Positions 15,286 through 45,195 of a stretch of 64,000 nt of DNA are shown in pieces. Each line of letters starts with the position of its first letter. Position 1 is the stretch's first letter. A program made the position numbers and the translations under genes. The notes under the pieces are model-generated. The model worked only from the letters and a program-made list of their open reading frames with translations, was not told where the DNA came from and searched no databases. The stretch comes from Candidatus Poseidoniaceae archaeon. Its GTDB lineage: Archaea; Thermoplasmatota; Poseidoniia; Poseidoniales; Poseidoniaceae. The stretch covers positions 10,859 through 74,858 of the forward strand of contig JBMTJI010000006.1 in NCBI GenBank assembly GCA_049438185.1, written 5' to 3'.

Positions 15286-16092
15286 TTAGGATTTTGAGAG
15301 TACGGCTTTCAGACCATAATGCATCATGCCATCCTGACCGTAGAGCCTTCTGAACACAAAATCCACACGTTCATCGATCTCCAGTTTTCCTGATTCGTCA
15401 TCTGCCATCATAAAGACACCCTTAGGACCTTCATCAAATTCGACAAGCACGGTCGCAACACCATCCAAAATTGGTGCTCGGTTTGAAAATTCGGAAGGTG
15501 CACCAGCGGCACTGAGACGCGTCCACGTGAGAATTGTAGCCGTTTCAGTCAGTTGCATCCCTTCGGTATCGATACGCTGCCCCATAGCATTGAGTTGCCG
15601 TGGAGGCCAAAGCATTCGCTCACCATCAATTTGGGCTTTCAAACCCAGTCGTGATGGAACCGAGATCGTGTGCTGCGCTTGGGAAACGTAAGCTCCTTGA
15701 CTGACACCTTCAACCTCAATTCTCCATTGATCGTTGAGTTCCGATTGCATGGTTTTGTCGTATTCTTGTGTTTCAAATTTAGGCCAATGTGGCACATCTT
15801 TTGATGGACTAACTGCGACACAGAATGCTTCCTTGTCAGTATGTAAGTACATGCCTGCATTCTCGTCAACAATCCAAGAGGTACTTGCCTCGATGATCGC
15901 TTGCACACTCACGCTTGGCGGATATTCGAGATGCTCCTCGAAACCATTCAGATTGATGGATTCTGCTGGTATCTCCTTCAACAGGGCAATGAGAACAGTC
16001 AATCTGTCGCCGTCTGGTCCCGCCCAGTTTGGACCGTATTGGCTACAAGCCATGTGTTGACTGCCATTGGAAATGATTTGAATTGGCATCAT
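15286..16092 (-). CDS. DUF35-like OB-fold protein (thiolase/HMGCS-associated scaffold family) with N-terminal extension and no Zn ribbon
   Basis: C-terminal GMQLTETATILTWTRLS...PILDGVATVLVEFDEGPKGVFMMADDE...VDFVFRRL resembles the DUF35 OB-fold. The Met at 16092 gives an ATGA start/stop overlap with the thiolase gene. No CxxC pairs. Confidence 0.5.
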   Translation of the reverse strand: MMPIQIISNGSQHMACSQYGPNWAGPDGDRLTVLIALLKEIPAESINLNGFEEHLEYPPSVSVQAIIEASTSWIVDENAGMYLHTDKEAFCVAVSPSKDVPHWPKFETQEYDKTMQSELNDQWRIEVEGVSQGAYVSQAQHTISVPSRLGLKAQIDGERMLWPPRQLNAMGQRIDTEGMQLTETATILTWTRLSAAGAPSEFSNRAPILDGVATVLVEFDEGPKGVFMMADDESGKLEIDERVDFVFRRLYGQDGMMHYGLKAVLSKS

Positions 16093-17258
16093 CTCTCTCT
16101 CCCGAAAACGTGGACTGCGCATGTCGCACCCGAACCACCGACATTGTGTGTCAATCCGATTTCTGCGCCACGTACCTGCCTCTCAGGCTCGACTTGGTGT
16201 CGAAGTTGCTTGAACAATTCAACGGCTTGTCCTGTTCCTGTAGCTCCAAGAGGGTGCCCTTTTGATTTGAGTCCTCCACTGGCATTGATGGTGACGCTTC
16301 CTTCATTCCTTCGACCTTCACCTTCTCGAGCGAACGTTCCTCCAAGTCCACGACCTGCGAATCCGAGATCTTCTGTGGCCAACACTTCAGCGATTGTGAA
16401 ACAATCATGAACTTCGGCCAGGTCTACATCAGATGCAGAGATGCCCGCCGACTTGTAGGCCTTTGCTGCGGCGGATTGCGTCGCTCTCAGTTGCGTGATG
16501 CTTGGCCTGTCATGGAGAGCCAAATGGTCGGAACCCGCACCAGATCCTTTGACCCAAACAGGTGTATCGGTGAACTTGTGTGCTAAGTGATCCGCAACCA
16601 GAATTACAGCAGATGCTCCATCGGACGTTGGGCAGCAGTCATAGAGCGTGAGTGGGTCTGCAACCATAAATCCTGATTGGGCTTTCTCAAACGAGACTTG
16701 TTTCCGAAGATGGGCAACTTCGTTCTCAAAACCGTGCATGTGGTTCTTAACGGAAACATGCACCAAGTCATCGTGTGTTGAATCAAATTCGTGAAAGTAT
16801 CTACGAGCTGTAAGCGCATAGGTTCCAGGGAAGGTCAAGCCTGCAAGACGTTCCCATTCTGTATCACCCGACACTCCGAGCCAGTAGCGTTTCCTTGAGG
16901 CAGACAAGTCGTTCATTTTCTCAATTCCACCTGCAACCACGACGTCGGCTTGACCACTCTTGATGGCCATCCAAGCGTCTCGTAGAGCAAAACCAGACGA
17001 AGCGCAAGCATTCTCGACACGACGGACGCTTACGCCTTCCATACCGGAATGTTCGGTGAGGAGGGCAGCCGTATTCCCTAACTGCGATCCTCCAAAAGCA
17101 ATGCTTCCAATGAAGGCTTCCTCGACATCGGGTGAATCGAACCCGTTATCGACACTTTGAATGGCCTTCTGGATTGCTTCTGCCCACATTCCTTTCAATC
17201 CGAGAGGATGGTTGCCGAATTTCGTTTGGCCTGCACCGACCATTGCCACATCGACCAT
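16089..17258 (-). CDS. Acetyl-CoA C-acetyltransferase (thiolase)
   Basis: MVDVAMVGAGQTKFG start typical of archaeal thiolases. Active-site regions ENACASSG and GxGxG. C-terminal NVGGSGATCAVHVF. The 105-aa upstream extension of the ORF is rejected. Confidence 0.8.
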   Translation of the reverse strand: MVDVAMVGAGQTKFGNHPLGLKGMWAEAIQKAIQSVDNGFDSPDVEEAFIGSIAFGGSQLGNTAALLTEHSGMEGVSVRRVENACASSGFALRDAWMAIKSGQADVVVAGGIEKMNDLSASRKRYWLGVSGDTEWERLAGLTFPGTYALTARRYFHEFDSTHDDLVHVSVKNHMHGFENEVAHLRKQVSFEKAQSGFMVADPLTLYDCCPTSDGASAVILVADHLAHKFTDTPVWVKGSGAGSDHLALHDRPSITQLRATQSAAAKAYKSAGISASDVDLAEVHDCFTIAEVLATEDLGFAGRGLGGTFAREGEGRRNEGSVTINASGGLKSKGHPLGATGTGQAVELFKQLRHQVEPERQVRGAEIGLTHNVGGSGATCAVHVFGRER

Positions 17259-18452: not shown

Positions 18453-19268
18453 ATGGTGAGGCGCATTATCATCAAATTTGGAGGTGCGCTCATCACCAAA
18501 AAAAATGAAGAATGCGTCGCAAACATCGAAATCATTCGGAATCTATGCTCCACCGTCCACTCCATAACCGAGCAAGGCGTTCACGTCATTATTGTGCATG
18601 GTGCGGGTTCGTTTGGCCACTTGAAGGCAAAACGATGGCGTCTTCATGAAGGTCATTTGCCTGGATTTGTAGTAGAAAATGACGCATGTTCATCCCAAAC
18701 CGAAGCCGTTGAACATGTCCGAAAAGATATGTTGGAACTCAACTCAATCATCGTTTCGGAATTAGACCGTGTTGGGTTGCATACACAATCGCATCCACCT
18801 CATGAATGGGCAACAAATCTTGGTCCAACGTTCAACGGTTCACTTGAGAGGTTTTCATTATCAAAACCAAACCATGTGCACCTATCATTTGGTGATGTAG
18901 TGGATGTCGATGGAGAGGATCAATTTGGAATTCTTTCTGGCGATGATCTCGTAGCTAGGCTTTCACTCGAACTTCCAGGGATTGAATCGCTTATCTTCGC
19001 AATGGGTGGCGTCGATGGGCTACTCAAGGTACCACCTCACCTCGCAGATGAACATGATTTGATCGATCACTGGTCACCAGATATTGCGTATGAAGGGCTG
19101 CATCAATCAGACATCGATGTAACAGGAGGTATTGGCTTGAAAATCAATCGAGGTCATTTGGTGGCTCAATCAGGGGTCGGAGTCTATCTCATTAATGGAG
19201 AACATCCAACGAGAATTGCAGCTCTCGTTCGAGGCGATCCTTGGAGAGGTACGACGATTTTACCTTGA
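18453..19268 (+). CDS. ipk: Isopentenyl phosphate kinase (amino-acid kinase fold)
   Basis: MVRRIIIKFGGALITKK...IIVHGAGSFGH. Glycine-rich kinase motifs. About 271 aa. Confidence 0.7.
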   Translation: MVRRIIIKFGGALITKKNEECVANIEIIRNLCSTVHSITEQGVHVIIVHGAGSFGHLKAKRWRLHEGHLPGFVVENDACSSQTEAVEHVRKDMLELNSIIVSELDRVGLHTQSHPPHEWATNLGPTFNGSLERFSLSKPNHVHLSFGDVVDVDGEDQFGILSGDDLVARLSLELPGIESLIFAMGGVDGLLKVPPHLADEHDLIDHWSPDIAYEGLHQSDIDVTGGIGLKINRGHLVAQSGVGVYLINGEHPTRIAALVRGDPWRGTTILP

Positions 19269-19278
19269 GGTGTGAATC

Positions 19279-19521
19279 GTGGAATTTGGATTGTATTCAC
19301 TCGGTATCGTTGTTGGTTTTGCAATTGTTCGGTGGGCTACTGAGAACACAACATTCCATCTACGAACAAATTCGATTTGGCTCCATCATTGGATCATTGC
19401 TCTCCTTGTGATGGTTCCAATGTTCTATTTTCAGATTGAATCTTCATTGCTTTGGGGTGGTATGACAGGAATGGCTCTTGAAGGTCTAGGCCGCAAGAAC
19501 TGGTCGATTCGACGTAAGTAG
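19279..19521 (+). CDS. Small two-helix membrane protein (hypothetical)
   Basis: 80 aa, two hydrophobic helices. Fills the gap between IPK and IDI-GGPPS with 10- and 17-nt spacers. Confidence 0.3.
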   Translation: MEFGLYSLGIVVGFAIVRWATENTTFHLRTNSIWLHHWIIALLVMVPMFYFQIESSLLWGGMTGMALEGLGRKNWSIRRK

Positions 19522-19538: not shown

Positions 19539-21344
19539 TTGAGGCGAACTCTCTATGTAGCGCCTGCCGAGAGAAAGTTTGGGGCTCATATGACGAACTA
19601 TGCGAGCGGGGACGTTCCTGAGGCAGATATCGATTCCGATGCCACGGAATTTTTGGCTGCACAATCCTCTGATTCGACCCAAGCCAGCATGATGGCAGAA
19701 GCGGTTTTGCAAGTTGATGAGAACGATGTTGTTGTCGGACCAATGAGCAAAGCGGACAGCCACTTCCAATCTGGCTCGCTTCATCGTGCATTTAGTGTTC
19801 TGTTGTTCAATTCAGAAGGACGTTTGCTTCTGCAACAACGAGCACATGACAAGATTACATTCCCAAGCGTTTGGGCAAACTCGTGTTGCTCACATCCTCT
19901 TGCAAGTAAGGACGAAATGGATGAATTAAACGCTCGTGGGGTCAAGATTGCAGCCATTCGTAAACTCGAACAGGAACTTGGTATTTCACCCGATTCGGTT
20001 GACATCAACGATTTTCACTTCATTACGAAAATGCGTTATTCTGCCCGAATGAATGCGGATTGGATTGAACGTGAAATCGATCATATTTTGATGATACAAG
20101 CTGATGTCGACCTCAATCCAAATCCGAATGAGGTGGCCGCAATCAAGTGGGTGAATGCTGAAGAATTGGATGCGATGTTGGTCGATCTGGAAAGTGATGA
20201 AATCATCGCCCCTTGGTTCCGTTGCATTGCTGCACGCTTGATGAACGAGGAGTGGTGGGAAGCAATCGGCAATCAAACTGCTTGTGAGGCACTCCAAGAT
20301 GGATTGATTCATGATATGGGCGATGTAACACATATGTTACCCAATGCAGAAGGTGCTGACTTGCTTACGAGCATCAACGAAGTCAAACCGTTCATTGAAC
20401 AGCGTATCATTGAGAGTTTGACAGCATCACGACACGAACGTTTGGCTAATGCGATGATGCATTTGATTCATGGCGGAGGAAAGCGAATGCGGGCAACACT
20501 TCCATGGCTGGTTGGCCGTGCAGTAGGTGACACGCATTCTGGTCTACTCGATATTGGTGCGGCCATTGAAACAATCCACAACTTTACGCTGGTACATGAT
20601 GATATCATGGACGATGATGAGATTCGTCGTGGTAGAAACGCTGTGCATATCGAATACGATATGCCGACGGCCATCAACGCAGGAGATGCAATGCTTGCTA
20701 TTGCTTTTGAACGCTTGGTCATGTCAGCAAACATTGAACTTCAGGACATTCCATCGCTTGTCAATCGAATAGCATGGATGGTGCGACGCGTTTCTGAAGG
20801 ACAACAGTTGGACATTGAATTTGAAACAAGGGATCGTGTTTCAGAAGAAGAATACTTAGAGATGATTGAAGGAAAAACAGCAGTCATGTTCCAGATTTGT
20901 GCAGAACTTGGTGCACGGGTTGCAGGTGCTGATGAAGAAGTCGTCCAATGTCTCGCCGAATGGGGTCTCTCCGTCGGTCTTTGTTTCCAGTTGATGGACG
21001 ATCTCATTGATGTGCTCTCAGACTCAGCCACACTTGGTAAACCCACGGGTTCGGATGTTGCTCAAGGGAAGCAAACGCTGATGGTCATTCATGCACTTTC
21101 GCAACCAGATTCGGATACAAAATCACGTCTGCTTTCCGTACTCGGAACGTGTGAGGATGCAACAGAATCGATGATTCAAGATGGAATTGCTGCCCTCGAT
21201 GAACTCGGTTCAATCGCTTATGCTCGTGCAAAGGCCAACGAATATCATCAACGTGCACATGCTTGCTTAGACCGTTTACCGGATGGACCAGCAATGATGG
21301 CATTGCGGGAATTAACTGACCTTCAACTTAAGCGTCTGAGTTGA
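19539..21344 (+). CDS. Fusion protein: type-1 isopentenyl-diphosphate isomerase (Nudix fold) + (E)-polyprenyl (GGPP/FPP) synthase
   Basis: N-terminal half has the IDI1 signature WANSCCSHPL and the Glu-rich Nudix-like segment. C-terminal half has FARM LVHDDIMDDDEIRRG and SARM FQLMDDLID. 601 aa. Alternative start at 19590. Confidence 0.8.
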   Translation: MRRTLYVAPAERKFGAHMTNYASGDVPEADIDSDATEFLAAQSSDSTQASMMAEAVLQVDENDVVVGPMSKADSHFQSGSLHRAFSVLLFNSEGRLLLQQRAHDKITFPSVWANSCCSHPLASKDEMDELNARGVKIAAIRKLEQELGISPDSVDINDFHFITKMRYSARMNADWIEREIDHILMIQADVDLNPNPNEVAAIKWVNAEELDAMLVDLESDEIIAPWFRCIAARLMNEEWWEAIGNQTACEALQDGLIHDMGDVTHMLPNAEGADLLTSINEVKPFIEQRIIESLTASRHERLANAMMHLIHGGGKRMRATLPWLVGRAVGDTHSGLLDIGAAIETIHNFTLVHDDIMDDDEIRRGRNAVHIEYDMPTAINAGDAMLAIAFERLVMSANIELQDIPSLVNRIAWMVRRVSEGQQLDIEFETRDRVSEEEYLEMIEGKTAVMFQICAELGARVAGADEEVVQCLAEWGLSVGLCFQLMDDLIDVLSDSATLGKPTGSDVAQGKQTLMVIHALSQPDSDTKSRLLSVLGTCEDATESMIQDGIAALDELGSIAYARAKANEYHQRAHACLDRLPDGPAMMALRELTDLQLKRLS

Positions 21345-21804
21345 TCCTTACTTGTTCTCCCTCTTGGATGATGCCTTCCACGAGAACTCGCGCATACCAA
21401 CGCGTCTGTCCAGGATACTTCTTATCAGAGAGTTGATTGAAATCACCACCTGTAAAAGAATCTTGAATGGTCTTGCATGGTGAAGCAGCCATCGTAATCT
21501 CGAGTTGTACGTTTTCAAATGAAATCTGAACACCTGGATAAAGTGCTTCCTGTGGGACGTTCAAAAGGAGATTTTCACCTGTTGAACCCCCAGTTATTGG
21601 ATGGCCAAGTGATTGCAAATATTCGATCGTTTCAGAACTGATCAAACATACTGCTTTTTCAGTGCCACCATGGTGTTTCGTATCACGAATAACCTCGTTT
21701 CGAATGCCAAGTGTTGTAACATCAAGAAACTCAACAGGTGGTTTGGGTACACCACCCTTCGTTGTAGCAAACAGGCCTGCAATGGATCCTGAAACCATGC
21801 TCAA
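21328..21804 (-). CDS. MOSC-domain protein (YiiM-like)
   Basis: HHGGTEKAVCL motif and beta-barrel-like sequence, 158 aa. Overlaps the aEF-2 3' end by 4 nt. Confidence 0.6.
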   Translation of the reverse strand: MSMVSGSIAGLFATTKGGVPKPPVEFLDVTTLGIRNEVIRDTKHHGGTEKAVCLISSETIEYLQSLGHPITGGSTGENLLLNVPQEALYPGVQISFENVQLEITMAASPCKTIQDSFTGGDFNQLSDKKYPGQTRWYARVLVEGIIQEGEQVRINSDA

Positions 21805-24017
21805 TCAGCATAATAGGATTCTGGGTTTGGCTCAGGCTTCAATCCCTTACGGGTTCGAATTTCACCGACAACCTTGTCAAAGAGTTGTGGTGGGAGCATT
21901 TCGAATCCAAGGTTCTCTGTGTTCCAAACAGCTCGTCCTTGCGATGCAGCACGGATGTCATTTGAGAAGCCAAAGGTCTCAGCAATTGGTAGGACACCAA
22001 CAACGGTTGTCACATCGCCTTCACTTGGCATGTCTTCGATAATTCCACGTCGGTTTGTGACCTCACGTGTGACTTGACCAAGCCAGTCGTTTGGAACGGA
22101 GACGAATGCCTTCTGCATTGGTTCAAGAAGAACCGTCTTCGCACGCATCATAGCACCCTTGATTCCGTTACGAACTGCAGGGATGGTTTGTGCAGGACCA
22201 CGGTGAATGGCGTCTTCGTGGAGTTTTGCGTCCGTCAATCGGACGAACATACCCTGAACAGGTTCATCAGCGATTGGACCCTTCTTACAGACTTCATTGA
22301 ACGCTTCAATAATCAATTCACGCGTTTCGTGGAGTCCTTGAATACCTTTTGTATCGTTGACGAGAACGTTGGTTCCATTGATGGCGTAGATCTTTCGCAT
22401 CAAATCCTTATCCATGCCAAGTTCCCCGAATTTGTTTCCAGTTTCCTTTGCATCACTGCTTCGAACAGGTCCATCGCCAAGATCACCGTTCCGTAGAGCG
22501 CTGACGACTTCAGCAGGAAGTGCTTCAATTTCAAAGAAGAAACGGTTGTGGCGGTTTGGAGACTTTCCTTCAAACGCATTTCCACGGTTGCTTCCTTGAA
22601 CACCTTCACGGTAGACAACGATTGGTGGGCTAACACTGACCTTGATGTTTTGTTCTTCTTCAATTCGGTACACTGTAATCTCAAGGTGAAGTTCTCCCAT
22701 ACCAGCGAGCAACGCTTCACCAGTTTCCTGGTTGGTTGTCACTTGAAGAGAAGCATCAGACTTTGCAAGAGAGCGTAGTGCGTCAATGAACTTTGGAAGA
22801 TCCTTCATGCTCTTTGGCTCGACAGCAACGGTAACGACCGGGTCAGAGTAGTGTCGAATGGCTTCGAATGGCGTGAAGTCTTTGTCACGAGAGAGCGTTA
22901 CACCAGCAGCAGCGCTTCGGATACCCGTGATTGCCGCAATGTTTCCAGCGACGACCTTTGGTACAGTGATTCGATCTCCACCAACCATCATGCTGACTTG
23001 TTGAACACGTTCTGGCTTTGCAGCACCGATGGCGAAGACGGATTCACCTTGAGAAATTGCACCGGAGTAAATACGTCCAACAGCAACTTCACCGGCGTGT
23101 GGATCCATCCAAATCTTGGTAATCATCATGGCGAGTTCTGCATCAGGGTCGCAGGCCATCATTGCCTTACCAATCGAGGAATCAAGGTCACCTGTCCAAA
23201 TGTTCGGAATACGATATGGTTGAGCTTCAACTGGGCTTGGCAGCTTCGTGACAGCCATGTCGAGGAGAACTTCGTGAACTGGTGCTTTTTGTGCCAGTTC
23301 CTTTTGTTTTTCATCGTTACAATACTGGAAGATGTCGGTCATGGTAACGCCAGATTTCTTCATGTATGGAATGGTGATTCCCCAGTTGTGGTATGCGCTA
23401 CCGAATGCAACTGTACCGTCCATAACACTGACTTGCCATTCTTTCTTGAATTCATCAGGAGCGAATTGCTTAATCAGTCTGTTGACCTTGGTAATGGTCT
23501 CTTGGAATCGGTTCATCATGTCTTCAGGGGTTACCTGAAGCTCGTTGATCAGTCGGTCGACTTTGTTGATGAAGAGAACAGGTTTCACCTTCTCCTTGAG
23601 TGCTTGTCGGACAACGGTCTCAGTTTGAGGCATTGGGCCTTCAACAGCACAGGCGAGAATGAAACAACCGTCAACAGCACGCATAGCACGAGTAACGTCA
23701 CCACCAAAGTCAACGTGACCAGGTGTGTCGATGAGATTGATGAGGTAATCTGTTCCTTCAACGGCGTGAACCATGGAAGCGGATGCGGCGTTGATGGTAA
23801 TTCCACGAGCAGATTCTTGCTCGTCAAAGTCGAGAACACGTGCTGCTCCAGCCAAATCACTGGACATCATACCGGCTCCAGCAATCAGGTTGTCAGAAAG
23901 AGTGGTTTTTCCGTGATCAATGTGCGCAGCAATGCACAGATTTCGAATCTGTGGAAGAACGTGCATAACTTCTGTAGCCTTTTTGATGTTGTCTTCTTTT
24001 CGTCCCATGGTGTCCAC
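21801..24017 (-). CDS. fusA: Translation elongation factor aEF-2
   Basis: AHIDHGKTTLSD G1 motif, DTPGHVDF. C-terminal diphthamide-loop region ...AIHRGPAQ.... 738 aa. Confidence 0.95.
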   Translation of the reverse strand: MDTMGRKEDNIKKATEVMHVLPQIRNLCIAAHIDHGKTTLSDNLIAGAGMMSSDLAGAARVLDFDEQESARGITINAASASMVHAVEGTDYLINLIDTPGHVDFGGDVTRAMRAVDGCFILACAVEGPMPQTETVVRQALKEKVKPVLFINKVDRLINELQVTPEDMMNRFQETITKVNRLIKQFAPDEFKKEWQVSVMDGTVAFGSAYHNWGITIPYMKKSGVTMTDIFQYCNDEKQKELAQKAPVHEVLLDMAVTKLPSPVEAQPYRIPNIWTGDLDSSIGKAMMACDPDAELAMMITKIWMDPHAGEVAVGRIYSGAISQGESVFAIGAAKPERVQQVSMMVGGDRITVPKVVAGNIAAITGIRSAAAGVTLSRDKDFTPFEAIRHYSDPVVTVAVEPKSMKDLPKFIDALRSLAKSDASLQVTTNQETGEALLAGMGELHLEITVYRIEEEQNIKVSVSPPIVVYREGVQGSNRGNAFEGKSPNRHNRFFFEIEALPAEVVSALRNGDLGDGPVRSSDAKETGNKFGELGMDKDLMRKIYAINGTNVLVNDTKGIQGLHETRELIIEAFNEVCKKGPIADEPVQGMFVRLTDAKLHEDAIHRGPAQTIPAVRNGIKGAMMRAKTVLLEPMQKAFVSVPNDWLGQVTREVTNRRGIIEDMPSEGDVTTVVGVLPIAETFGFSNDIRAASQGRAVWNTENLGFEMLPPQLFDKVVGEIRTRKGLKPEPNPESYYAD

Positions 24018-25514: not shown

Positions 25515-26786
25515 TTGGCGTTTCGTGACCACCTCTCGCACGCTGAACGTATCGAAGATGAGACGAGTCTCATCCATGGAATTTGGGAGTTCAGCACGTC
25601 CCGCTCACACTCAAATTTATTGTTTGAGAACATCAAAGAAGTGCCTGGGCAACGAATTTCGGTAAACATGCTAACGCGCGATCGTCTTTGTGAAGCCATC
25701 GGAATTAAACCGGAAGTCTACATTGATACTTTGGCCTGGGCGATGAAGAATCCATCGACACCAGAACTCGTTTCACCTGCTGAATCGCCTGTTTTCGACC
25801 ATATGCAAGAAGAGGTCGATCTGCATTCCGTCGCAATTCCTTACCATTGGCCTCAAGACCGGGGTCGTTACATGTCTGCTAGCGTGATTATTGCAGAAGT
25901 CAATGGTCAACGAAACATGAGTTTCCACAGGCAATTCCTTCGTGACAAGAACCACCTTGTTGTGCGACTGGTACCTCGTCATTTGCGAACCATGGTCGAC
26001 CAGGCACGTGAACGTGGTGAGGAAGTCAATATTGCAATCGTTAACGCCCCCGATCCTGTTGTTTTGCTTGCTGGTGCAATGTCGTTTGATGAACCAATCG
26101 ATGAACTTACTATTGCTGCAGCATTGCATGAAAAACTCTACGACAAACCACTGCAATTGGTTGAGTTACCGAATGGTATCCAAGTTCCTGCTGATGCAGA
26201 ATATGCAATGTGGGGGCGCATTACGTTGGAGGACGACGATGAAGGTCCTTATGTGGACATCACGGGTACAGTCGATGATGTACGTCAAGAACCAGTGATT
26301 GAAGTCGATGGTGTCCTTCATCGTGAGCATCCTATCTTCCATGCGCTTATTCCAGGAGAAGCAGAACACAAGACGCTGATGGGATTGCCACGTTCGCCAA
26401 CCATCAAGGAAGCAGTTTCGCAGGTTGTTGACTGCATTGATGTTCACATGACTGAGGGTGGATGTGGCTGGCTTGCAGCAGTTGTGAAGATTCGAAAGTC
26501 ATCGGAAGAAGATGGACGGAAGGCCATCGAAGCCGCTCTTGCCGGGCACCGTTCGATGAAGATGGTCACGGTTGTTGATGAGGACATTGATATCAGCAAT
26601 CCTGTGCGGGTTGAATGGGCGATGGTCACTCGCTGGCAACCTGACCGAGATACGCATATTTTCCCACATCAGAAAGGATCCAGCCTTGATCCTTCACGGT
26701 ACGAAGACGGTCTCACTTCGAAGGTTGGATTTGATGCAACCATCCATCATTCAGATAACCCAGAAGGGTACATGAGCGTCCAGTAG
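25515..26786 (+). CDS. UbiD-family (prFMN-dependent) decarboxylase, candidate anhydromevalonate-phosphate decarboxylase of the archaeal mevalonate pathway
   Basis: 423 aa. UbiD-like blocks (NMSFHRQFL..., HREHPIFHALIPGEAEHKTLMGL, CGWLAAVVKIRK, WAMVTRWQPDRD). Function is inferred from family plus isoprenoid gene context. Confidence 0.65.
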   Translation: MAFRDHLSHAERIEDETSLIHGIWEFSTSRSHSNLLFENIKEVPGQRISVNMLTRDRLCEAIGIKPEVYIDTLAWAMKNPSTPELVSPAESPVFDHMQEEVDLHSVAIPYHWPQDRGRYMSASVIIAEVNGQRNMSFHRQFLRDKNHLVVRLVPRHLRTMVDQARERGEEVNIAIVNAPDPVVLLAGAMSFDEPIDELTIAAALHEKLYDKPLQLVELPNGIQVPADAEYAMWGRITLEDDDEGPYVDITGTVDDVRQEPVIEVDGVLHREHPIFHALIPGEAEHKTLMGLPRSPTIKEAVSQVVDCIDVHMTEGGCGWLAAVVKIRKSSEEDGRKAIEAALAGHRSMKMVTVVDEDIDISNPVRVEWAMVTRWQPDRDTHIFPHQKGSSLDPSRYEDGLTSKVGFDATIHHSDNPEGYMSVQ

Positions 26787-40652: not shown

Positions 40653-41579
40653 ATGTTCCTTTCCAAAGAGGTTGCCACCATCGCAGGCGCTCTTGGAATG
40701 GTTTTTCTCGCCATATCATGGCACAGACGGCACAATGAAGGTGTTTCACGCCTCGCTCAATGTGGTTGGATTTTGGTCGGCCTGTATTTCTTCAACGACT
40801 CCTTATATTATTTCGAACTTGAGGATCTTGTACTTACCATCATGACGGCGCTAGCACTGCCGATTTCGGTAGCATTGGTGATTGCAGAAGCTCGATCGTT
40901 GACGGAACGTGATCGAGCAGCCCTCAATTGGGCACGTGGATGCGTTGCCTATGCAGGAGGCCCCTACCTTCTTGTCGCTCACATTCCATGGCTCTCTGTT
41001 TTGGCGATTTGGTTCGTTGCTTCTCAAGTCGCTATGTTCCTGTCCTTCACCGGGACAGTGGATATCAAACTCGGTGAAACGTATGTCAATACATCTGAAG
41101 GTCGCTTTTTGTGGGACGATTGGGATGGCAACAAGTGGTTCATGACCGACGGTTTTGCAGAACACCCGTTCCAAACAGAATTGATCATGGCCGATGGTGG
41201 ATTCATTGGCATTAATTTCGTATTAGCTTGTACTGCGCTTCAATCGATGATCGTATTTATTGGAGCGATTTCAGTCCTTGATGTCGATCGAAAGCGCCGC
41301 ATTCGAGCCCTGCTCTTCACGGTACCAATCATTCACATTCTCAATCTGTTCCGAAATGCAGGGCTTGTATGGATGCATCTCTCTTACGAAGGATGGGAAT
41401 ACCTTGGTTTGAGCATGTTCGAATTTGGACATTCTTATGCTGCACGAGTCGTCTCGCTCTTTGCCATGTTTGTGATGGCGATTGCGATGTTCGAGTTACT
41501 TCCTGAGTTGCATCGACACATCCTTCGATTGATGGATGCATCTGGACTTCGTAAGAAAAAGACGAAGATTAGTCCTTAA
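40653..41579 (+). CDS. Archaeosortase/exosortase-family membrane protein (candidate archaeosortase)
   Basis: 308 aa polytopic. Cys193 in VLACTALQS (cf. exosortase CSGxRS). Arg234 in NLFRN is 41 residues downstream, the same spacing as H. volcanii ArtA Cys173/Arg214. A third Arg is at 265. Confidence 0.55.
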   Translation: MFLSKEVATIAGALGMVFLAISWHRRHNEGVSRLAQCGWILVGLYFFNDSLYYFELEDLVLTIMTALALPISVALVIAEARSLTERDRAALNWARGCVAYAGGPYLLVAHIPWLSVLAIWFVASQVAMFLSFTGTVDIKLGETYVNTSEGRFLWDDWDGNKWFMTDGFAEHPFQTELIMADGGFIGINFVLACTALQSMIVFIGAISVLDVDRKRRIRALLFTVPIIHILNLFRNAGLVWMHLSYEGWEYLGLSMFEFGHSYAARVVSLFAMFVMAIAMFELLPELHRHILRLMDASGLRKKKTKISP

Positions 41580-44500
41580 TCCAAGGTGAATCAGGATCGT
41601 CACGATGCCATAGTCGTCCACTGTTCGGTGGATATTCAATGTGCTCTCGACCCTTTGAATCCATCATTCCCATCAAACTCGCTGCTGGCTGGTCATGTTC
41701 GGGTTGAGACTCAAAATTATCCCCGCCAAAGTCGTAGATGGGTATATTGGTTGTTTGGCCAGATGGGGCAACTTCGTTCACGATGATTGATTGCAGTGCC
41801 TGACGTCCGGTGGATGATGCTTCTGCAAGGTTGTCACCCATATTCAACATCTGTTCTGAGAAAGCATCTGTTTTGTTCCATTCTTGATCCAAGTTTTGGC
41901 GAGAACCGCCTCCGCCACGGGCAAAGAGAACCAAGAGCCCGATGAGGACGATGAGCATAGCCCCTCCAGCACCATAGAGCATGTCATTGGCAACGCTTGG
42001 TGCAAAGTCAGCATTGTCGCCGATTCCGTCACCATCTGCGTCTTTTGACTCATTGGGATCGTTGGGGAATTGATCATCAACATTTGGCACACCATCACCA
42101 TCTGTATCGAATGGATTGAAGGTGGTCTTACAGTTTTCAATCGCTTCCTCAAGTTCATCTTGTGTGATGTAGTCGTCGCCGTTTTCGTCCAAGAACTTCA
42201 AATCGTAGGTATTTCTCAAATCCAACGATTCAAAGAATTCCGTCGAAGTCTTATACGGAAGTTGCTCCATCATCGAATTGAGTTCGTTCTCGCACGTGCA
42301 CGAGAATGCAACAACTTCAGTGAATTCAATCATACCATCGCCATTCACATCAACATCGGCAAATTCGATATCATTTGGTGGATCTGACCGCCTAAACTCA
42401 TCCGCATTCATCAATCCATTGCCGTTGATATCAACCTCTTCGAAAAACTCTTCGAGATTATAATCGCATGCATAGATATCTTCGGGTTCAGGTTCAGGAT
42501 CTGGGTCTGGCCCTGGACGGTCGTTTGTTTTCCAATAGGCAACAATGGAGACATCTGAGAAATCATCTTGTGCAACGACTGTAATGTCAAAACGACCCGC
42601 TGCAGGTGAATAGATGTACAATTCTTGGTAGGTACCTTCTCCATATGATGTGAACTCTTCTTCGAAGATGTCCTCATCCATAAAGTCATCAAAACCTTCG
42701 AACTCATCAAAGCCGAAGAAATCGCCATAGTCCACCTCGCCATCAGCAGTGATGTACAGTGAACCGTCTCCACCAAATGTTGTGATGATCAGTTCTTCTG
42801 CGCGAGACTCGAGATCGACATAGAAATAGAGTTCTTCTCCGGCAGGAGCACTGAGTCCGTCGACGTCTTCATCATTGAACAACTCAATCGGTGTACCATC
42901 GTATTCCCAAATGTAGAGGTCTTCGAAGGATGCTGTGATCGACACTCCACTGAACACACTTTCAGAGTCGAGGAGAATGTGCCACTTGCCTGGAGTTGGG
43001 TTGTTGAATCCAATCTTGTCTCCTGCACCTGGAGCTCCTGAATGATGATCTGCTTCGCTTGCCGTAGGTGTGTTTTCATAGCGCATGTGGAGCGTTGCCT
43101 CACCGAATCCTCCGTCGAGGTCAACTTCAAGTCGCTCTGTTCCAGTTGGAACGTCGATGAAGAAATATTGGTCAAGACCATCGTAACCGCTCATTGGCCC
43201 ATATGCAACACCTGGTTGTAATTCGATAGCAGTTGATGGATCTGCATTGTCTGGTGCATACGTGAAATCAGCGACGATTGTGAAATCAGAAGCCTTTCGA
43301 TAGGTGAAGGCTGTGATGTAGTATATTCCAGGTTCGACATCAAACAAATTAACCTCTTCACCATTACCATCGTTGGTTGACCAAGCAATGTTGCTTTGCT
43401 GATATTCTGCTACGGAATATTCATCAAAATATGGTTCCCCGTAATAGTAGTAGTAATTCGGGTCAATCGGCCCTCCTGAGGAGAGAATAAGGTCGATGTT
43501 TCCTTTTCCTCCATACGTTTCAATCTTCAATTCTGTGAGTGAATCGGTAACATTAACGTAATAGTATTCCAAGGCCGCATCCCAGCTATCACGACCGGAT
43601 TCGACGGTTTGGGATGTGATGGGGACACCATTGAACAACTGGGTCATTTCATCAAGACTTGGTGGCTCTTCGGCAACTTCCCAAGAGGCGATGATTTCCA
43701 ATTCCTCGATGTCTTGCTTGGCAACGATGGAGTACCACATAATATTGTGTTCTGGCCATGTCCATGAGTTGAAGACTGAACCCCAATAACTGGTCAACTC
43801 CATGTCGTAATCCCAAGGCGCTGGTATGCGATCGTAACCAACATATGCGTCGAAGAGCATGTTCTCTTCGTAATCATAATCCCAATCGTCGTAAAATATT
43901 TCAGACCAAGAATAAATAGCAATGTCGGTCATGAATGTGTAGTCGTCGAGTTCTGCATAGAAGAGGAGGGTGTCGCCTTCCTGGATGTTTTCCAATACAA
44001 GGAATTCATCGTTGGGTAGTTCTACCGCTTGCGCGACGATCGAACCATCAGGCATGACCCAATCGGCACCGTGAATGGTACCAATACGATCCATTGTAGC
44101 ATCGTTCAATGCATCCCCTGTGTCCCCACCTTCACCTTCCCAGAACGTCCATCGACTGACAGGCTCCCACATGTTCTGTTCAACAAATGAGATGGTAAGG
44201 TCATCGATGATGCCTTCGAAATGATAGCAGTCGCAACCAGCACCCATTCGAGCGATGTACAATTCATCGCATGCGTCGCCTGAGGTGAAACAGTCATTGG
44301 AGCCAAAATCCCCTTCAGGAATGTTGGCATCCTCGGCAGAAATGTTCCCTGCAGGAACACCATCAATGGTGAAAAATCCTCCAACTCCTTCGATGAGTTG
44401 AACACCGATGGTATGCCAGGTGCCTTCAGTAATGCTCATGTTGGATGTCGGATGCTTGGAAAGACTGTATTCGGATGCGTATCCAATGGCGCCATTAGAG

Positions 44501-45195
44501 AGATACATGCCCCATCCATAATCCCCTTTCATGGTAATAAATCGAATACCATCAAGACTGCTTGCTTTGATGGTCGCTTCGATGTTCAGCGTTCCATTTG
44601 CGATCAAACCCTCGTCATGGTCGATGACGATGTGGTCTTCAATACCATCAAATCTGAGAGAGAAATCTGCACCGGGTCCAACTTCAACAACACCGTAGAC
44701 GGGGAAGTATTCTGGATTGTTTTCCAAATCGTTCCATGTTTGAGGATCAATGTTGCCCATGTTGGTTGAAGCGATGTGTACATAGTCAGAATCATCTCCT
44801 CCTGTTGGTTGGTCGACACCCCAATTGCGGTACAAGAATGGCGTGCCATCGTGCCATCGGTAAATGCCTTCGTCTTGAACATCGTTCAATCCAATCCACA
44901 AATGCCGACTTTGATTGTCAAAACTGGCAAAGGTGTCGAATACCCAAGTGTTCTCTTCAGAATCGTCGATGGTCGTTAGATAACCATCGAGAGAACGCGC
45001 CTTGAACGCAGCATCTTCCCAAGACGATGCGGAGAGAAGGTGGTACGTCTTGTTGTTATCGGGATTGACTGCTGTATGCAAGATATCGATTTCATCGAGT
45101 TCACTTGAATTTGCTTGAACCATTGCGACCATGCATGTTGAGGCGAGCATCATCAGAATCAGTGTTGTAGCAACGAACGGAGAGCCTTGGGCCAT
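41569..45195 (-). CDS. Giant multidomain cell-surface protein: signal peptide, Cys-less C-type-lectin-like domain, LamG/ConA-like, 3x PPC (pre-peptidase C-terminal)-like domains, TSP3/EF-hand/dockerin-like Ca-binding repeats, TM helix and ~115-aa cytoplasmic tail
   Basis: 1208 aa. CTLD pattern WIGLNDVQDEGIYRWHDGTPFLYRNWGVDQP...WNDL. PPC-like YYVNVTD...GKGNIDLIL and QYFFIDVP...LHMRY. DVNGDGMIEF (EF-hand/dockerin). DTDGDGVPNVDDQFPNDPNESKDADGDGIGDNAD (TSP3-like). TM LIVLIGLLVLF. Confidence 0.8.
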   Translation of the reverse strand: MAQGSPFVATTLILMMLASTCMVAMVQANSSELDEIDILHTAVNPDNNKTYHLLSASSWEDAAFKARSLDGYLTTIDDSEENTWVFDTFASFDNQSRHLWIGLNDVQDEGIYRWHDGTPFLYRNWGVDQPTGGDDSDYVHIASTNMGNIDPQTWNDLENNPEYFPVYGVVEVGPGADFSLRFDGIEDHIVIDHDEGLIANGTLNIEATIKASSLDGIRFITMKGDYGWGMYLSNGAIGYASEYSLSKHPTSNMSITEGTWHTIGVQLIEGVGGFFTIDGVPAGNISAEDANIPEGDFGSNDCFTSGDACDELYIARMGAGCDCYHFEGIIDDLTISFVEQNMWEPVSRWTFWEGEGGDTGDALNDATMDRIGTIHGADWVMPDGSIVAQAVELPNDEFLVLENIQEGDTLLFYAELDDYTFMTDIAIYSWSEIFYDDWDYDYEENMLFDAYVGYDRIPAPWDYDMELTSYWGSVFNSWTWPEHNIMWYSIVAKQDIEELEIIASWEVAEEPPSLDEMTQLFNGVPITSQTVESGRDSWDAALEYYYVNVTDSLTELKIETYGGKGNIDLILSSGGPIDPNYYYYYGEPYFDEYSVAEYQQSNIAWSTNDGNGEEVNLFDVEPGIYYITAFTYRKASDFTIVADFTYAPDNADPSTAIELQPGVAYGPMSGYDGLDQYFFIDVPTGTERLEVDLDGGFGEATLHMRYENTPTASEADHHSGAPGAGDKIGFNNPTPGKWHILLDSESVFSGVSITASFEDLYIWEYDGTPIELFNDEDVDGLSAPAGEELYFYVDLESRAEELIITTFGGDGSLYITADGEVDYGDFFGFDEFEGFDDFMDEDIFEEEFTSYGEGTYQELYIYSPAAGRFDITVVAQDDFSDVSIVAYWKTNDRPGPDPDPEPEPEDIYACDYNLEEFFEEVDINGNGLMNADEFRRSDPPNDIEFADVDVNGDGMIEFTEVVAFSCTCENELNSMMEQLPYKTSTEFFESLDLRNTYDLKFLDENGDDYITQDELEEAIENCKTTFNPFDTDGDGVPNVDDQFPNDPNESKDADGDGIGDNADFAPSVANDMLYGAGGAMLIVLIGLLVLFARGGGGSRQNLDQEWNKTDAFSEQMLNMGDNLAEASSTGRQALQSIIVNEVAPSGQTTNIPIYDFGGDNFESQPEHDQPAASLMGMMDSKGREHIEYPPNSGRLWHRDDPDSPWIKD

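What the first reader, a model, noticed from the sequence alone, without database searches (positions are those of the whole stretch)
19539..21344. Type-1 IPP isomerase fused to a GGPP/FPP-type prenyl synthase, in an operon with IPK and a small membrane protein
Most archaea use FMN-dependent type-2 IDI. Here an unmistakable IDI1 active-site motif (WANSCCSHPL) is fused in frame to a polyprenyl synthase with intact FARM (DDIMDD) and SARM (DDLID). Isopentenyl phosphate kinase lies directly upstream, with an 80-aa two-helix membrane ORF in between. A single polypeptide supplying both DMAPP and chain elongation for ether-lipid synthesis would be a notable metabolic streamlining. The IDI1 may have a bacterial/eukaryal-like origin.
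Basis: partly seen in the sequence, partly recalled or inferred. Interest (0 to 1): 0.58.

Follow-up and report, generated by a model that had tools for sequence, protein, structure and literature searches.

The report
Fused IPP isomerase–GGPP synthase of Poseidoniales
Marine Group II archaea (Poseidoniales) make one protein that joins a eukaryote-type IPP isomerase to a geranylgeranyl-diphosphate synthase; the fusion is real, order-wide and apparently undescribed, but it combines two well-known enzymes whose function is predictable.

Summary
It is not an assembly artefact. The same uninterrupted gene occurs in 63 of 64 species-level Poseidoniales genomes (MGIIa and MGIIb) and on hundreds of metagenome contigs. 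All 12 IDI1 catalytic, metal and diphosphate residues, both Asp-rich motifs and the chain-length Phe are invariant in 60 orthologs.

- IPK–[IDI1::GGPPS] occupies the position that is IPK–type-2 IDI–(RNase J)–GGPPS in other archaea. IDI1 therefore sits in IDI2's slot.
- A related lineage with the same synteny has separate idi1 and GGPPS genes overlapping by ATGA. The fused junction (…IHDMGDVTH-M249-LP…) is what removing that stop would produce.
- The IDI1 half is of the long, eukaryote type (human E 2e-51, E. coli 5e-13).

The 80-aa ORF is a real gene but is confined to one subclade. Still open are enzyme activity, product length, whether IDI2 is absent genome-wide, and whether the split form is ancestral.

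The parts
19590..21344 (+). Fused gene idi1::GGPPS (584 aa plus stop). ATG 19590 is the start used by homologs.
   Evidence: P0001 is 100% identical, 584 aa, and NCBI names it as from a Candidatus Poseidoniaceae archaeon.
19590..20333 (+). Type-1 IPP isomerase part (aa 1-248; conserved core about aa 34-228; structured C-terminal tail to about aa 247).
   Evidence: TIGR02150 161.4 > 105.8. Human IDI1 E 2.4e-51. AF2 pLDDT about 90 over aa 10-250, with a strand at 240-245.
19887..19889 (+). Codon of catalytic Cys100 (E. coli Idi Cys67).
   Evidence: Invariant in 60 fused orthologs; coordinates.
20073..20075 (+). Codon of catalytic and metal-binding Glu162 (E. coli Idi Glu116).
   Evidence: Invariant in 60 fused orthologs; coordinates.
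20334..20336 (+). Met249: the former start codon of the GGPPS gene, now internal. This is the fusion junction.
   Evidence: Split relatives end IDI1 with a stop that overlaps the GGPPS start (ATGA/TTGA) and begin GGPPS with MS(L/I)P. The fused form reads ...GDVTH-M-LP.
20334..21341 (+). Short-chain trans-prenyl diphosphate synthase part (predicted GGPP synthase, archaeal type I).
   Evidence: PF00348 E 3e-66. Closest solved structures are the archaeal GGPPSs 5jfq (E 3e-60) and 1wy0.
20598..20612 (+). First Asp-rich motif DDIMD (aa 337-341). Phe332 lies five residues upstream.
   Evidence: D337, D338, D341 and F332 are 100% conserved; coordinates.
20997..21011 (+). Second Asp-rich motif DDLID (aa 470-474).
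   Evidence: D470 and D471 100%, D474 98% conserved; coordinates.
18453..19268 (+). Isopentenyl phosphate kinase (271 aa from the likely start).
   Evidence: NF040647 143.2 > 120. Directly upstream on the same strand in every Poseidoniales locus that has upstream sequence.
19279..19521 (+). 80-aa hydrophobic protein; a subclade-specific insert between IPK and the fused gene.
   Evidence: Orthologs only in L004-L007, dN/dS 0.11-0.17, no family match.
19544..19562 (+). Conserved motif GCGAACTCTCTATGTAGCG upstream of the fused gene; candidate BRE/TATA promoter.
   Evidence: Conserved in all 15 MGIIa upstream regions aligned. The promoter function is inferred.
21328..21804 (-). MOSC-domain gene, convergent, overlapping the 3' end of the fused gene by 17 nt. 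Context only.
   Evidence: PF03473. Conserved downstream in MGIIa loci only.
16089..17258 (-). Thiolase (likely acetoacetyl-CoA thiolase, the first step of the mevalonate pathway). Context only.
   Evidence: NF004720 442.7 > 420. Same position in the split-gene lineage.

Best explanation
The gene encodes one polypeptide with two catalytic domains. This is shown at sequence level.

The N-terminal domain is a type-1 (Nudix-fold, metal-dependent) isopentenyl-diphosphate isomerase. Its inferred reaction is conversion of IPP, made by the upstream isopentenyl phosphate kinase, into DMAPP by protonation and deprotonation with Cys100 and Glu162.

The C-terminal domain is an archaeal type-I short-chain trans-prenyl diphosphate synthase. 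Its inferred reaction is condensation of that DMAPP with three IPP, through its two Asp-rich Mg-binding motifs, to give geranylgeranyl diphosphate. Phe332 would limit chain length.

The two domains are tethered by only about 10 residues, so isomerase and synthase are made 1:1 and held together. This would supply the allylic primer where it is consumed. Substrate channelling is speculation.

Evolutionary reading (inferred): in the Poseidoniales lineage a eukaryote-type idi1 took the position between IPK and GGPPS that type-2 IDI holds in other archaea. The idi1 and GGPPS genes overlapped by ATGA, and a frameshift at the overlap removed the stop codon and fused them, most likely once.
For: - Domain identity: TIGR02150 scores above its curated cutoff and PF00348 gives E 3e-66. 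The closest solved proteins are human IDI1 (E 2.4e-51) and archaeal GGPPS 5jfq (E 3.3e-60).
- Both halves are under constraint. K54, H58, H65, R84, K88, C100, H102, E129, Y150, E160, E162 and W209 (= E. coli K21, H25, H32, R51, K55, C67, H69, E87, Y104, E114, E116, W161) are invariant in 60 fused orthologs that diverge to about 46% identity. So are GGKRxR, FARM, SARM, the KT motif and F332.
- Reality and spread: the 120 best clusters all have both domains. There are 64 species-level genomes from Poseidoniaceae and Thalassarchaeaceae, with one ORF in all but one genuine split and one scaffold gap.
- Slot replacement: seven outgroup archaeal loci were checked. Two Thermoplasmata and one Bathyarchaeia locus have IPK-IDI2-GGPPS. 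Four methanogen loci have IPK-IDI2-RNase J-GGPPS. IDI2 scores 344-420 against a cutoff of 281. No IDI1 lies near the outgroup GGPPS genes. No IDI2 is found in the window or in 1.05 Mb of Poseidoniales-type loci.
- Fusion mechanism: syntenic split loci L081-L084 and L064, and a second lineage L086/L087, have idi1 and GGPPS overlapping by 4 nt. The tail and start sequences are collinear with the fused junction.
- Polarity: fused-clade monophyly excluding the split lineage is 81, 98 and 98 of 100 in rooted NJ trees of GGPPS, IPK and both concatenated.
- Short tether: the AF2 IDI half is confident through about residue 247 and the first synthase helix starts at 258.
Against: - No enzymology: isomerase activity, product chain length and any kinetic benefit of fusion are inferred.
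- The C half scores below the NCBIfam equivalog cutoffs for IdsA (287.7 < 468) and GGPP_syn (252.9 < 500), so C20 specificity rests on F332 and on similarity to solved GGPPSs.
- Absence of IDI2 from whole Poseidoniales genomes was not testable.
- Polarity is weakly resolved. An EF-2 tree rooted with three solved archaeal EF-2 sequences puts the split lineage beside MGIIa (67/100) and never recovers the fused clade (0/100). It also fails to recover MGIIb (2/100). Slow-site counts are nearly uninformative, 6 vs 3 vs 1.
- The AF2 model of the synthase half is poor (pLDDT < 50, pTM 0.47) because only a shallow alignment was permitted. Inter-domain geometry is therefore unknown.
- A conserved promoter-like motif upstream of the fused gene questions strict co-transcription with IPK.
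Confidence: 0.85

Rival explanations
1. The fusion is an assembly, frameshift or gene-calling artefact that joins two adjacent genes.
For: Related lineages do have adjacent, overlapping idi1 and GGPPS genes. A few 288-290-aa 'IDI-only' calls lie inside the MGIIa clade (P0132, P0338, P0341).
Against: The same uninterrupted frame occurs in 62 of 64 species-level genomes from different studies and assemblers, and in more than 120 clusters on hundreds of contigs. Sequence through the junction is conserved in MGIIa. The L058 exception is a scaffold gap. P0132 has a nonsense tail typical of an indel error.
Confidence: 0.01
2. The N-terminal domain is no longer an isomerase. It would be a Nudix-type hydrolase, a regulatory or IPP-binding module, or an inactive relic, and DMAPP would come from a type-2 IDI elsewhere in the genome.
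For: Whole-genome absence of IDI2 could not be tested. Pfam on its own only reports NUDIX.
Against: The IDI1 equivalog model scores above its cutoff. All 12 residues that define IDI1 catalysis, metal binding and diphosphate binding are invariant across 60 orthologs. IDI2 is missing from exactly the slot it occupies in other archaea.
Confidence: 0.04
3. The synthase half makes a product other than GGPP as its main product. It could be FPP (C15, or bifunctional FPP/GGPP as in some archaeal IdsA enzymes) or geranylfarnesyl-PP (C25).
For: It scores below every NCBIfam equivalog cutoff, and the IdsA, GGPP_syn and geranylfarnesyl models score similarly (288, 253, 241 bits). Chain length cannot be read reliably from sequence.
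Against: The motif HNFTLVHDDIMD is identical to that of the solved GGPPS 5jfq. An aromatic residue five positions before FARM (F332, 100% conserved) marks archaeal C20 enzymes (my knowledge: Sulfolobus acidocaldarius GGPPS Phe77, Ohnuma et al. 1996).
Confidence: 0.2
4. On evolution: the fusion is ancestral to all Poseidoniales and the split-gene lineage arose by secondary fission, or MGIIa and MGIIb fused independently.
For: The rooted EF-2 tree places the split lineage beside MGIIa (67/100) and gives fused-clade monophyly 0/100. EF-2 of the split lineage is 82% identical to the window, against 77% for MGIIb. Slow-site counts are nearly flat.
Against: Rooted IPK, GGPPS and concatenated trees put the split lineage outside all fused forms (98, 81, 98 of 100). 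A second lineage outside the clade (L086) also has the split, overlapping arrangement. The EF-2 root breaks MGIIb monophyly (2/100), so it is suspect. Fusions are generally commoner than fissions (my knowledge: Kummerfeld and Teichmann 2005).
Confidence: 0.3

Closest known systems
Type-1 IPP isomerase of eukaryotes (human IDI1, PDB 2icj/2dho)
   Same: About 44% identity over the whole domain with E 2.4e-51. The catalytic Cys and Glu, the metal ligands, and the long-form insertions and C-terminal tail are shared.
   Different: Here it is the N-terminal domain of a two-enzyme protein in an archaeon. It is much further from the short bacterial type (E. coli Idi: E 5e-13, about 32% identity).
Archaeal type-I GGPP synthases (Geoglobus acetivorans 5jfq, Pyrococcus horikoshii 1wy0) and IdsA
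   Same: E 3e-60 and 1e-55. The FARM region HNFTLVHDDIMD is identical, SARM is shared, and there is an aromatic residue at -5. In other archaea the gene lies downstream of IPK and IDI.
   Different: Those enzymes are stand-alone and partner with a separate FMN-dependent type-2 IDI. The window protein scores below the NCBIfam equivalog cutoffs.
Natural IDI-SQS fusion of diatoms and other stramenopiles
   Same: A long-type IDI1 forms the N-terminal domain, fused to a downstream isoprenoid enzyme. Examples are P0178, P0188 and P0464; described in PMC12175399.
   Different: The partner is squalene synthase (PF00494), which does not consume DMAPP directly. It is eukaryotic and an independent event.
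Engineered idi-(GGGGS)2-ggpps fusion used in metabolic engineering (Pichia pastoris, PMC6786277)
   Same: The same two activities in the same N-to-C order, built to push IPP towards GGPP.
   Different: It is artificial, has a flexible synthetic linker, and combines a yeast IDI with Sulfolobus GGPPS. The natural protein has a short native tether derived from the IDI1 tail and the GGPPS N-terminus.
Split idi1 | GGPPS gene pair of related marine Euryarchaeota (L081-L084, L064; L086/L087)
   Same: Orthologous domains (46-51% identity). In L081-L084 the synteny is the same: thiolase, Tpt1, IPK, idi1, GGPPS, EF-2, S7, S12, UbiD.
   Different: There are two genes with a 4-nt ATGA/TTGA overlap instead of one ORF.

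Membership tests
Type-1 isopentenyl-diphosphate isomerase (IDI1; NCBIfam TIGR02150, Nudix fold) | Scores above the curated equivalog cutoff | tested here: met
   161.4 bits against a cutoff of 105.8, aa 58-230 of the 601-aa reading. NF002995 also passes, 139.7 > 127.
Type-1 isopentenyl-diphosphate isomerase (IDI1; NCBIfam TIGR02150, Nudix fold) | Catalytic Cys (E. coli C67) and Glu (E116) acid/base pair | tested here: met
   C100 and E162 are present and invariant in 60 orthologs. The residue roles are from my knowledge of the E. coli Idi structures.
Type-1 isopentenyl-diphosphate isomerase (IDI1; NCBIfam TIGR02150, Nudix fold) | Metal ligands (H25, H32, H69, E114, E116) and diphosphate-binding K21, R51, K55, E87 | tested here: met
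   H58, H65, H102, E160, E162, K54, R84, K88 and E129 are all invariant.
Type-1 isopentenyl-diphosphate isomerase (IDI1; NCBIfam TIGR02150, Nudix fold) | Catalyses IPP to DMAPP interconversion | not testable with these tools
   Needs an enzyme assay or complementation.
Short-chain trans-prenyl diphosphate synthase, archaeal type-I GGPP synthase | Polyprenyl_synt fold with two Asp-rich motifs (FARM DDxxD without insertion; SARM DDxxD) | tested here: met
   PF00348 E 3e-66. DDIMD 337-341 and DDLID 470-474 are conserved.
Short-chain trans-prenyl diphosphate synthase, archaeal type-I GGPP synthase | Bulky aromatic residue at the fifth position before FARM, limiting the product to C20 | tested here: met
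   F332 is 100% conserved. The rule is from my knowledge (Ohnuma et al. 1996).
Short-chain trans-prenyl diphosphate synthase, archaeal type-I GGPP synthase | Scores above an NCBIfam equivalog cutoff (IdsA_Meth NF040698 or GGPP_syn NF041003) | tested here: not met
   287.7 < 468 and 252.9 < 500. I therefore do not file it as an equivalog of those named enzymes, only as a member of the family and type.
Short-chain trans-prenyl diphosphate synthase, archaeal type-I GGPP synthase | The product is GGPP (C20) | not testable with these tools
   Needs product analysis.
Type-2 (FMN-dependent) IDI, the usual archaeal isomerase (TIGR02151) | Homology to the TIM-barrel FMN enzyme | tested here: not met
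   No match in the fused protein. No IDI2-like sequence in the window or in 1.05 Mb of related loci. It is present in 13 of 16 outgroup loci.
Conserved IPK-IDI-GGPPS gene cluster of archaea | IPK upstream of an IDI gene and a GGPPS gene on the same strand | tested here: met
   The window and all Poseidoniales loci with upstream sequence have it. The outgroups have the same order with IDI2. Co-transcription was not tested, and a promoter-like motif lies before the fused gene.

The most novel reading that the evidence does not exclude
A eukaryote-type IDI1 was acquired by interdomain transfer in the ancestor of the marine Poseidoniia. It displaced the ancestral FMN-dependent IDI2 in situ, so that it is now the only isomerase. 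It then fused to GGPPS to form an obligate two-step 'IPP to GGPP' enzyme whose tight tether gives a kinetic advantage, either by DMAPP channelling or by control of the IPP:DMAPP ratio. That would make it a lineage-defining remodelling of the entry to all isoprenoid and lipid synthesis in one of the ocean's most abundant archaeal groups.
Probability: 0.3. Interest if true: 0.62.

Novelty: new variant of a known kind. Interest (0 to 1): 0.48.

Why it matters
- Poseidoniales (Marine Group II) are among the most abundant planktonic archaea, are uncultured, and have disputed membrane lipids. Papers report that they appear to lack G1P dehydrogenase and carry bacterial-type lipid genes (PMC7852524). 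A strictly conserved IPK–IDI1::GGPPS locus shows that the entry to isoprenoid synthesis is intact and under strong selection. It also gives a single clonable gene with which to test what these organisms can make.
- Most archaea use the FMN-dependent type-2 IDI. This archaeal order instead uses a eukaryote-type isomerase at the same chromosomal position. This extends earlier surveys, which listed archaeal IDI1 only in Haloarchaea and Thaumarchaeota (PMC3533463).
- The locus preserves both the 'before' state (overlapping genes) and the 'after' state (fused gene) of a gene fusion, with the former start codon still visible.
- It is a natural counterpart of IDI–GGPPS fusions that engineers build by hand.
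- The component enzymes and their chemistry are well known, so the finding refines existing knowledge and does not overturn it.

Tried and rejected
- Literature: nine full-text searches and several papers gave no description of a natural archaeal IDI1–GGPPS fusion. The MGII genomics paper of Rinke et al. does not mention isopentenyl, mevalonate or geranylgeranyl. The Hoshino and Villanueva review is not held, so prior mention elsewhere cannot be excluded.
- 'Stand-alone IDI' P0132 (290 aa) was rejected as evidence of an unfused MGIIa gene because its tail is nonsense sequence, probably from an indel. The L058 'split' is a run of 10 N.
- P0133, a eukaryote-type IDI+GGPPS-III protein, is a singleton. 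Its halves match an IDI–SQS protein (80%) and stand-alone stramenopile GGPPSs (about 66%), so it is possibly a merged gene call. It is not evidence of a conserved eukaryotic fusion.
- Rooting EF-2 with solved archaeal EF-2 sequences gave a conflicting, poorly rooted tree. Slow-site pattern counting was nearly uninformative.
- The IDI tree could not resolve donor or direction of transfer.
- Naming the split-gene lineages failed. NCBI labels are generic, and the supplements of Rinke et al. contain none of the accessions.
- Alignment A3, meant to deepen the AF2 input, misaligned the eukaryotic GGPPSs onto the IDI half and was discarded. The AF2 run on A4 gave a good IDI half but an unusable synthase half (pLDDT < 50, pTM 0.47), so no inter-domain geometry was obtained.
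- Genome-wide absence of IDI2 in Poseidoniales could not be tested.
Full report
**What is there.** The window holds an ORF at 19539..21344 on the + strand. Pfam finds a NUDIX domain followed by a polyprenyl synthetase domain (E 3e-66). NCBIfam's equivalog model for type-1 IPP isomerase (TIGR02150) scores 161.4 against a cutoff of 105.8. The C half scores best against archaeal IdsA/GGPP synthase models, but below their equivalog cutoffs. A 100% identical protein (P0001) is 584 aa and is labelled Candidatus Poseidoniaceae archaeon by NCBI. All close homologs are 584 aa, so the start is ATG 19590 rather than TTG 19539. Upstream on the same strand lie isopentenyl phosphate kinase (NF040647 143.2 > 120; likely start 18453) and the 80-aa ORF 19279..19521. 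The rest of the window is ordinary archaeal housekeeping: EF-2, S7, S12, exosome, proteasome, SBDS, SRP54, Lhr helicase.

**Not an artefact, and order-wide.**
- The 120 best clusters in the 5.8-billion-protein collection all carry both Pfam domains and come from hundreds of contigs, some longer than 1 Mb.
- A scan of one genome per GTDB species returned 64 loci matching both halves (46-90% identity). Their titles include Poseidoniaceae, Poseidonia, Thalassarchaeaceae, Thalassarchaeum and 'Marine Group II'. The next 16 loci (Thermoplasmata, methanogens, haloarchaea, Bathyarchaeia) match only the synthase half.
- In 62 of the 64 loci the two halves are in one frame, and where not cut by a contig end they lie in a single stop-free ORF. 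L058 is interrupted by a 10-N scaffold gap. L064 is a genuine split form.
- Among 1.84 billion 50%-identity representatives, the only other proteins covering both halves are three singletons (P0133, P0207, P0201) with unrelated domain subtypes. P0133 looks like a stramenopile IDI joined to a stramenopile GGPPS and has no fused relatives.

**Both halves look active.** I aligned 60 fused orthologs with E. coli Idi, using its sequence and residue roles from my own knowledge. All twelve functional residues are invariant: K21, H25, H32, R51, K55, C67, H69, E87, Y104, E114, E116 and W161, which correspond to window K54, H58, H65, R84, K88, C100, H102, E129, Y150, E160, E162 and W209. In the synthase half, GGKRxR, the first Asp-rich motif (DDIMD 337-341), KT 429-430, the second Asp-rich motif (DDLID 470-474) and Phe332 are essentially invariant. 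Phe332 lies five residues before the first motif. The FARM region HNFTLVHDDIMD is identical to that of the solved Geoglobus GGPPS 5jfq. An aromatic residue at -5 is the known determinant of C20 product length in archaeal type-I GGPPS (my knowledge). The product is therefore predicted, not shown, to be GGPP.

**How it probably works.** IPK makes IPP. The IDI1 domain isomerises part of it to DMAPP. The synthase domain condenses DMAPP with three IPP. These steps follow from the established chemistry of the two families and were not tested here. The AF2 model is confident for residues about 10-250 (pLDDT about 90), including a strand at 240-245, and the first synthase helix is predicted from residue 258. 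The conserved ...IHDMGD... tail therefore belongs to the isomerase fold, and the real tether is only about 10 residues. The synthase half of the model is unreliable because only a shallow alignment was permitted (pTM 0.47), so I cannot say whether the active sites face each other. Equal stoichiometry and proximity are the safe inferences. Channelling is speculation.

**IDI1 sits where IDI2 sits elsewhere.** In every Poseidoniales locus with upstream sequence, IPK immediately precedes the fused gene. In the outgroup loci IPK lies 1-3.5 kb upstream of the stand-alone GGPPS. The gene in between is a type-2 IDI, with TIGR02151 scores of 344-420 against a cutoff of 281. It is directly adjacent to GGPPS in two Thermoplasmata loci and one Bathyarchaeia locus, and is followed by RNase J in methanogens. 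No IDI1 lies within 10 kb of the outgroup GGPPS genes. No IDI2-like sequence occurs in the 64-kb window or in 1.05 Mb of Poseidoniales-type loci, whereas 13 of 16 outgroup loci have one. This is the pattern of non-orthologous displacement in situ. Whether an IDI2 survives elsewhere in these genomes could not be tested.

**How the fusion arose.** Stand-alone long-type IDI1 proteins of 223-235 aa are common in marine euryarchaeal MAGs. Loci L081-L084 (Tara contigs; GCA_002720095.2, GCA_002720275.1) have the same gene order as the window: MreB-like, thiolase, Tpt1, small ORF, IPK, idi1, GGPPS, EF-2, S7, S12, UbiD. There, however, idi1 (224 aa) and GGPPS (332 aa) are separate genes overlapping by 4 nt. 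L064 (UBA596) is the same. A second lineage (L086/L087) has the same overlapping pair in a different neighbourhood. The split forms read ...KIHQMGEIK* or ...NKGVLE*, with the stop overlapping ATG/TTG, followed by MS(L/I)P.... The fused MGIIa proteins read ...LIHDMGDVTH-M249-LPN.... The junction is therefore the old gene boundary, the old GGPPS start codon survives at nt 20334-20336, and a small frameshift at the overlap is enough to fuse the genes.

**Polarity is only moderately supported.**
- NJ trees rooted with the outgroup archaea put the split lineage outside all fused forms. Fused-clade monophyly is 81/100 for GGPPS, 98/100 for IPK and 98/100 concatenated. Fused plus split are monophyletic in 100/100.
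- L086's GGPPS falls among the Thermoplasmata outgroups, so the split state is seen outside the clade as well.
- EF-2, rooted with three solved archaeal EF-2 sequences, places the split lineage beside MGIIa (67/100) and never recovers the fused clade. The same tree breaks MGIIb monophyly (2/100), so its root is doubtful.
- Counts of slowly evolving sites give almost no signal: 6 for fused monophyly, 3 for split+MGIIa, 1 for split+MGIIb.
- I read this as a rapid three-way radiation. A single fusion is the more likely history (about 0.65-0.7). Fission or two fusions are not excluded.

**Origin of the isomerase.** The IDI half is far closer to human IDI1 (E 2.4e-51, about 44% identity) than to E. 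coli Idi (E 5e-13, about 32%). In an NJ tree it groups with the long-type IDI1 of eukaryotes (human, Albugo, stramenopile IDI–SQS proteins) and of a few gammaproteobacteria (Endozoicomonas, Kentrum). It lies apart from the short bacterial type. Deep branching is unresolved, so donor and direction are open. Earlier surveys listed archaeal IDI1 only for Haloarchaea and Thaumarchaeota and attributed it to transfer from bacteria (PMC3533463).

**The small ORF and the 'operon'.** The 80-aa hydrophobic protein has orthologs only in L004-L007 (61-75% identity, dN/dS 0.11-0.17). It is missing in L001-L003, whose fused gene is 90% identical to the window's, and in all other loci. It is a real gene but a subclade-specific insert. 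A motif GCGAACT(C/G)T(C/T)(T/C)ATGTAGCG lies 30-45 nt upstream of the fused gene's ATG in all 15 MGIIa loci aligned, followed by a GGGGC/GGTGA element. It resembles an archaeal BRE/TATA pair, so the fused gene may have its own promoter.

**Comparison and novelty.** The components are standard families. The fused protein passes the defining tests for IDI1 and for a type-I short-chain prenyl synthase, but not the NCBIfam equivalog cutoffs for named GGPP synthases. Natural fusions of IDI1 to squalene synthase are known in diatoms (PMC12175399), and engineers have built idi–linker–ggpps fusions (PMC6786277). I found no description of this natural archaeal fusion in the searchable literature, although public annotation already lists the protein as an isomerase or as a GGPP synthase. 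I rate it a new variant of a known kind, of moderate interest. It is solidly real, order-wide in a globally abundant group, and its evolutionary path can be followed step by step. Its function is unsurprising and remains untested.

Noticed in passing
window 19544..19562 (ATG of the fused gene at 19590): A motif GCGAACT(C/G)T(C/T)(T/C)ATGTAGCG is conserved 30-45 nt upstream of the fused gene in all 15 MGIIa loci aligned, with or without the 80-aa ORF. A GGGGC/GGTGA element follows near the ATG. It looks like an archaeal BRE/TATA promoter plus a ribosome-binding site.
   Followed up: partly
window 25515..26786 (+): A UbiD-family decarboxylase (TIGR00148 308 > 245) sits beyond EF-2/S7/S12 and holds the same position in the split-gene lineage. 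UbiD-type enzymes decarboxylate anhydromevalonate phosphate in the archaeal mevalonate pathway (my knowledge), so this may be another pathway gene. No specific model matched.
   Followed up: partly
window 15286..17258 (-): A thiolase (NF004720 442.7 > 420) overlaps a 278-aa protein that has only a weak OB-fold (ChsH2_C/DUF35-like) match. This possibly represents the archaeal acetoacetyl-CoA thiolase with its partner, next to the IPK locus. The listed thiolase ORF is about 105 codons too long at its 5' end.
   Followed up: partly
window 19279..19521 (+); L004-L007: The 80-aa protein has an almost invariant C-terminus, ALEGLGRKNWSIRR(K/L), and two hydrophobic segments. It has no family match. 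It was inserted between IPK and the fused gene in one Poseidoniaceae subclade only.
   Followed up: partly
window 21328..21804 (-): A MOSC-domain gene is convergent with the fused gene and overlaps its 3' end by 17 nt. This neighbour is conserved in MGIIa loci but absent from MGIIb and from the split-gene lineage.
   Followed up: partly
L066, L072, L075, L076 (methanogen loci): In methanogens an RNase J gene sits between type-2 IDI and GGPPS within the IPK-IDI2-GGPPS cluster. In Thermoplasmata and Bathyarchaeia the three genes are directly adjacent.
   Followed up: no
L086:6001-7661, L087:2917-4577: A second marine archaeal lineage has idi1 (226 aa) and GGPPS (327 aa) overlapping by ATGA, but without IPK upstream (an aldehyde dehydrogenase is on the opposite strand). 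Its GGPPS groups with the outgroup Thermoplasmata. The lineage is not identified and is possibly Marine Group III.
   Followed up: partly
proteins P0207, P0201, P0220, P0253, P0263 (representative library): Other unusual IDI architectures turned up. Two are singleton fusions of a short bacterial-type IDI to a polyprenyl synthase. One is a DUF6962-IDI fusion. Two are proteins of 739 and 1059 aa with a C-terminal long-type IDI domain and no other Pfam match.
   Followed up: no
proteins P0331 (Endozoicomonas montiporae), P0411 (Candidatus Kentrum): Symbiotic gammaproteobacteria carry the long, eukaryote-type IDI1, about 47-50% identical to the archaeal ones. This type of isomerase has therefore moved between domains more than once.
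   Followed up: no
EF-2 gene, window 21801..24017 (-), compared with IPK and GGPPS: Unexplained conflict: EF-2 of the split-gene lineage is closer to the window (82%) than MGIIb EF-2 is (77%), and the rooted EF-2 tree nests that lineage beside MGIIa. IPK and GGPPS trees place it outside all fused forms.
   Followed up: partly
window 41569..45195 (-) and 45279..50570 (-): A 1208-aa protein combines C-type lectin, PPC and EF-hand domains. A 1763-aa Lhr-type helicase has an AlkZ-like C-terminal region.
   Followed up: no
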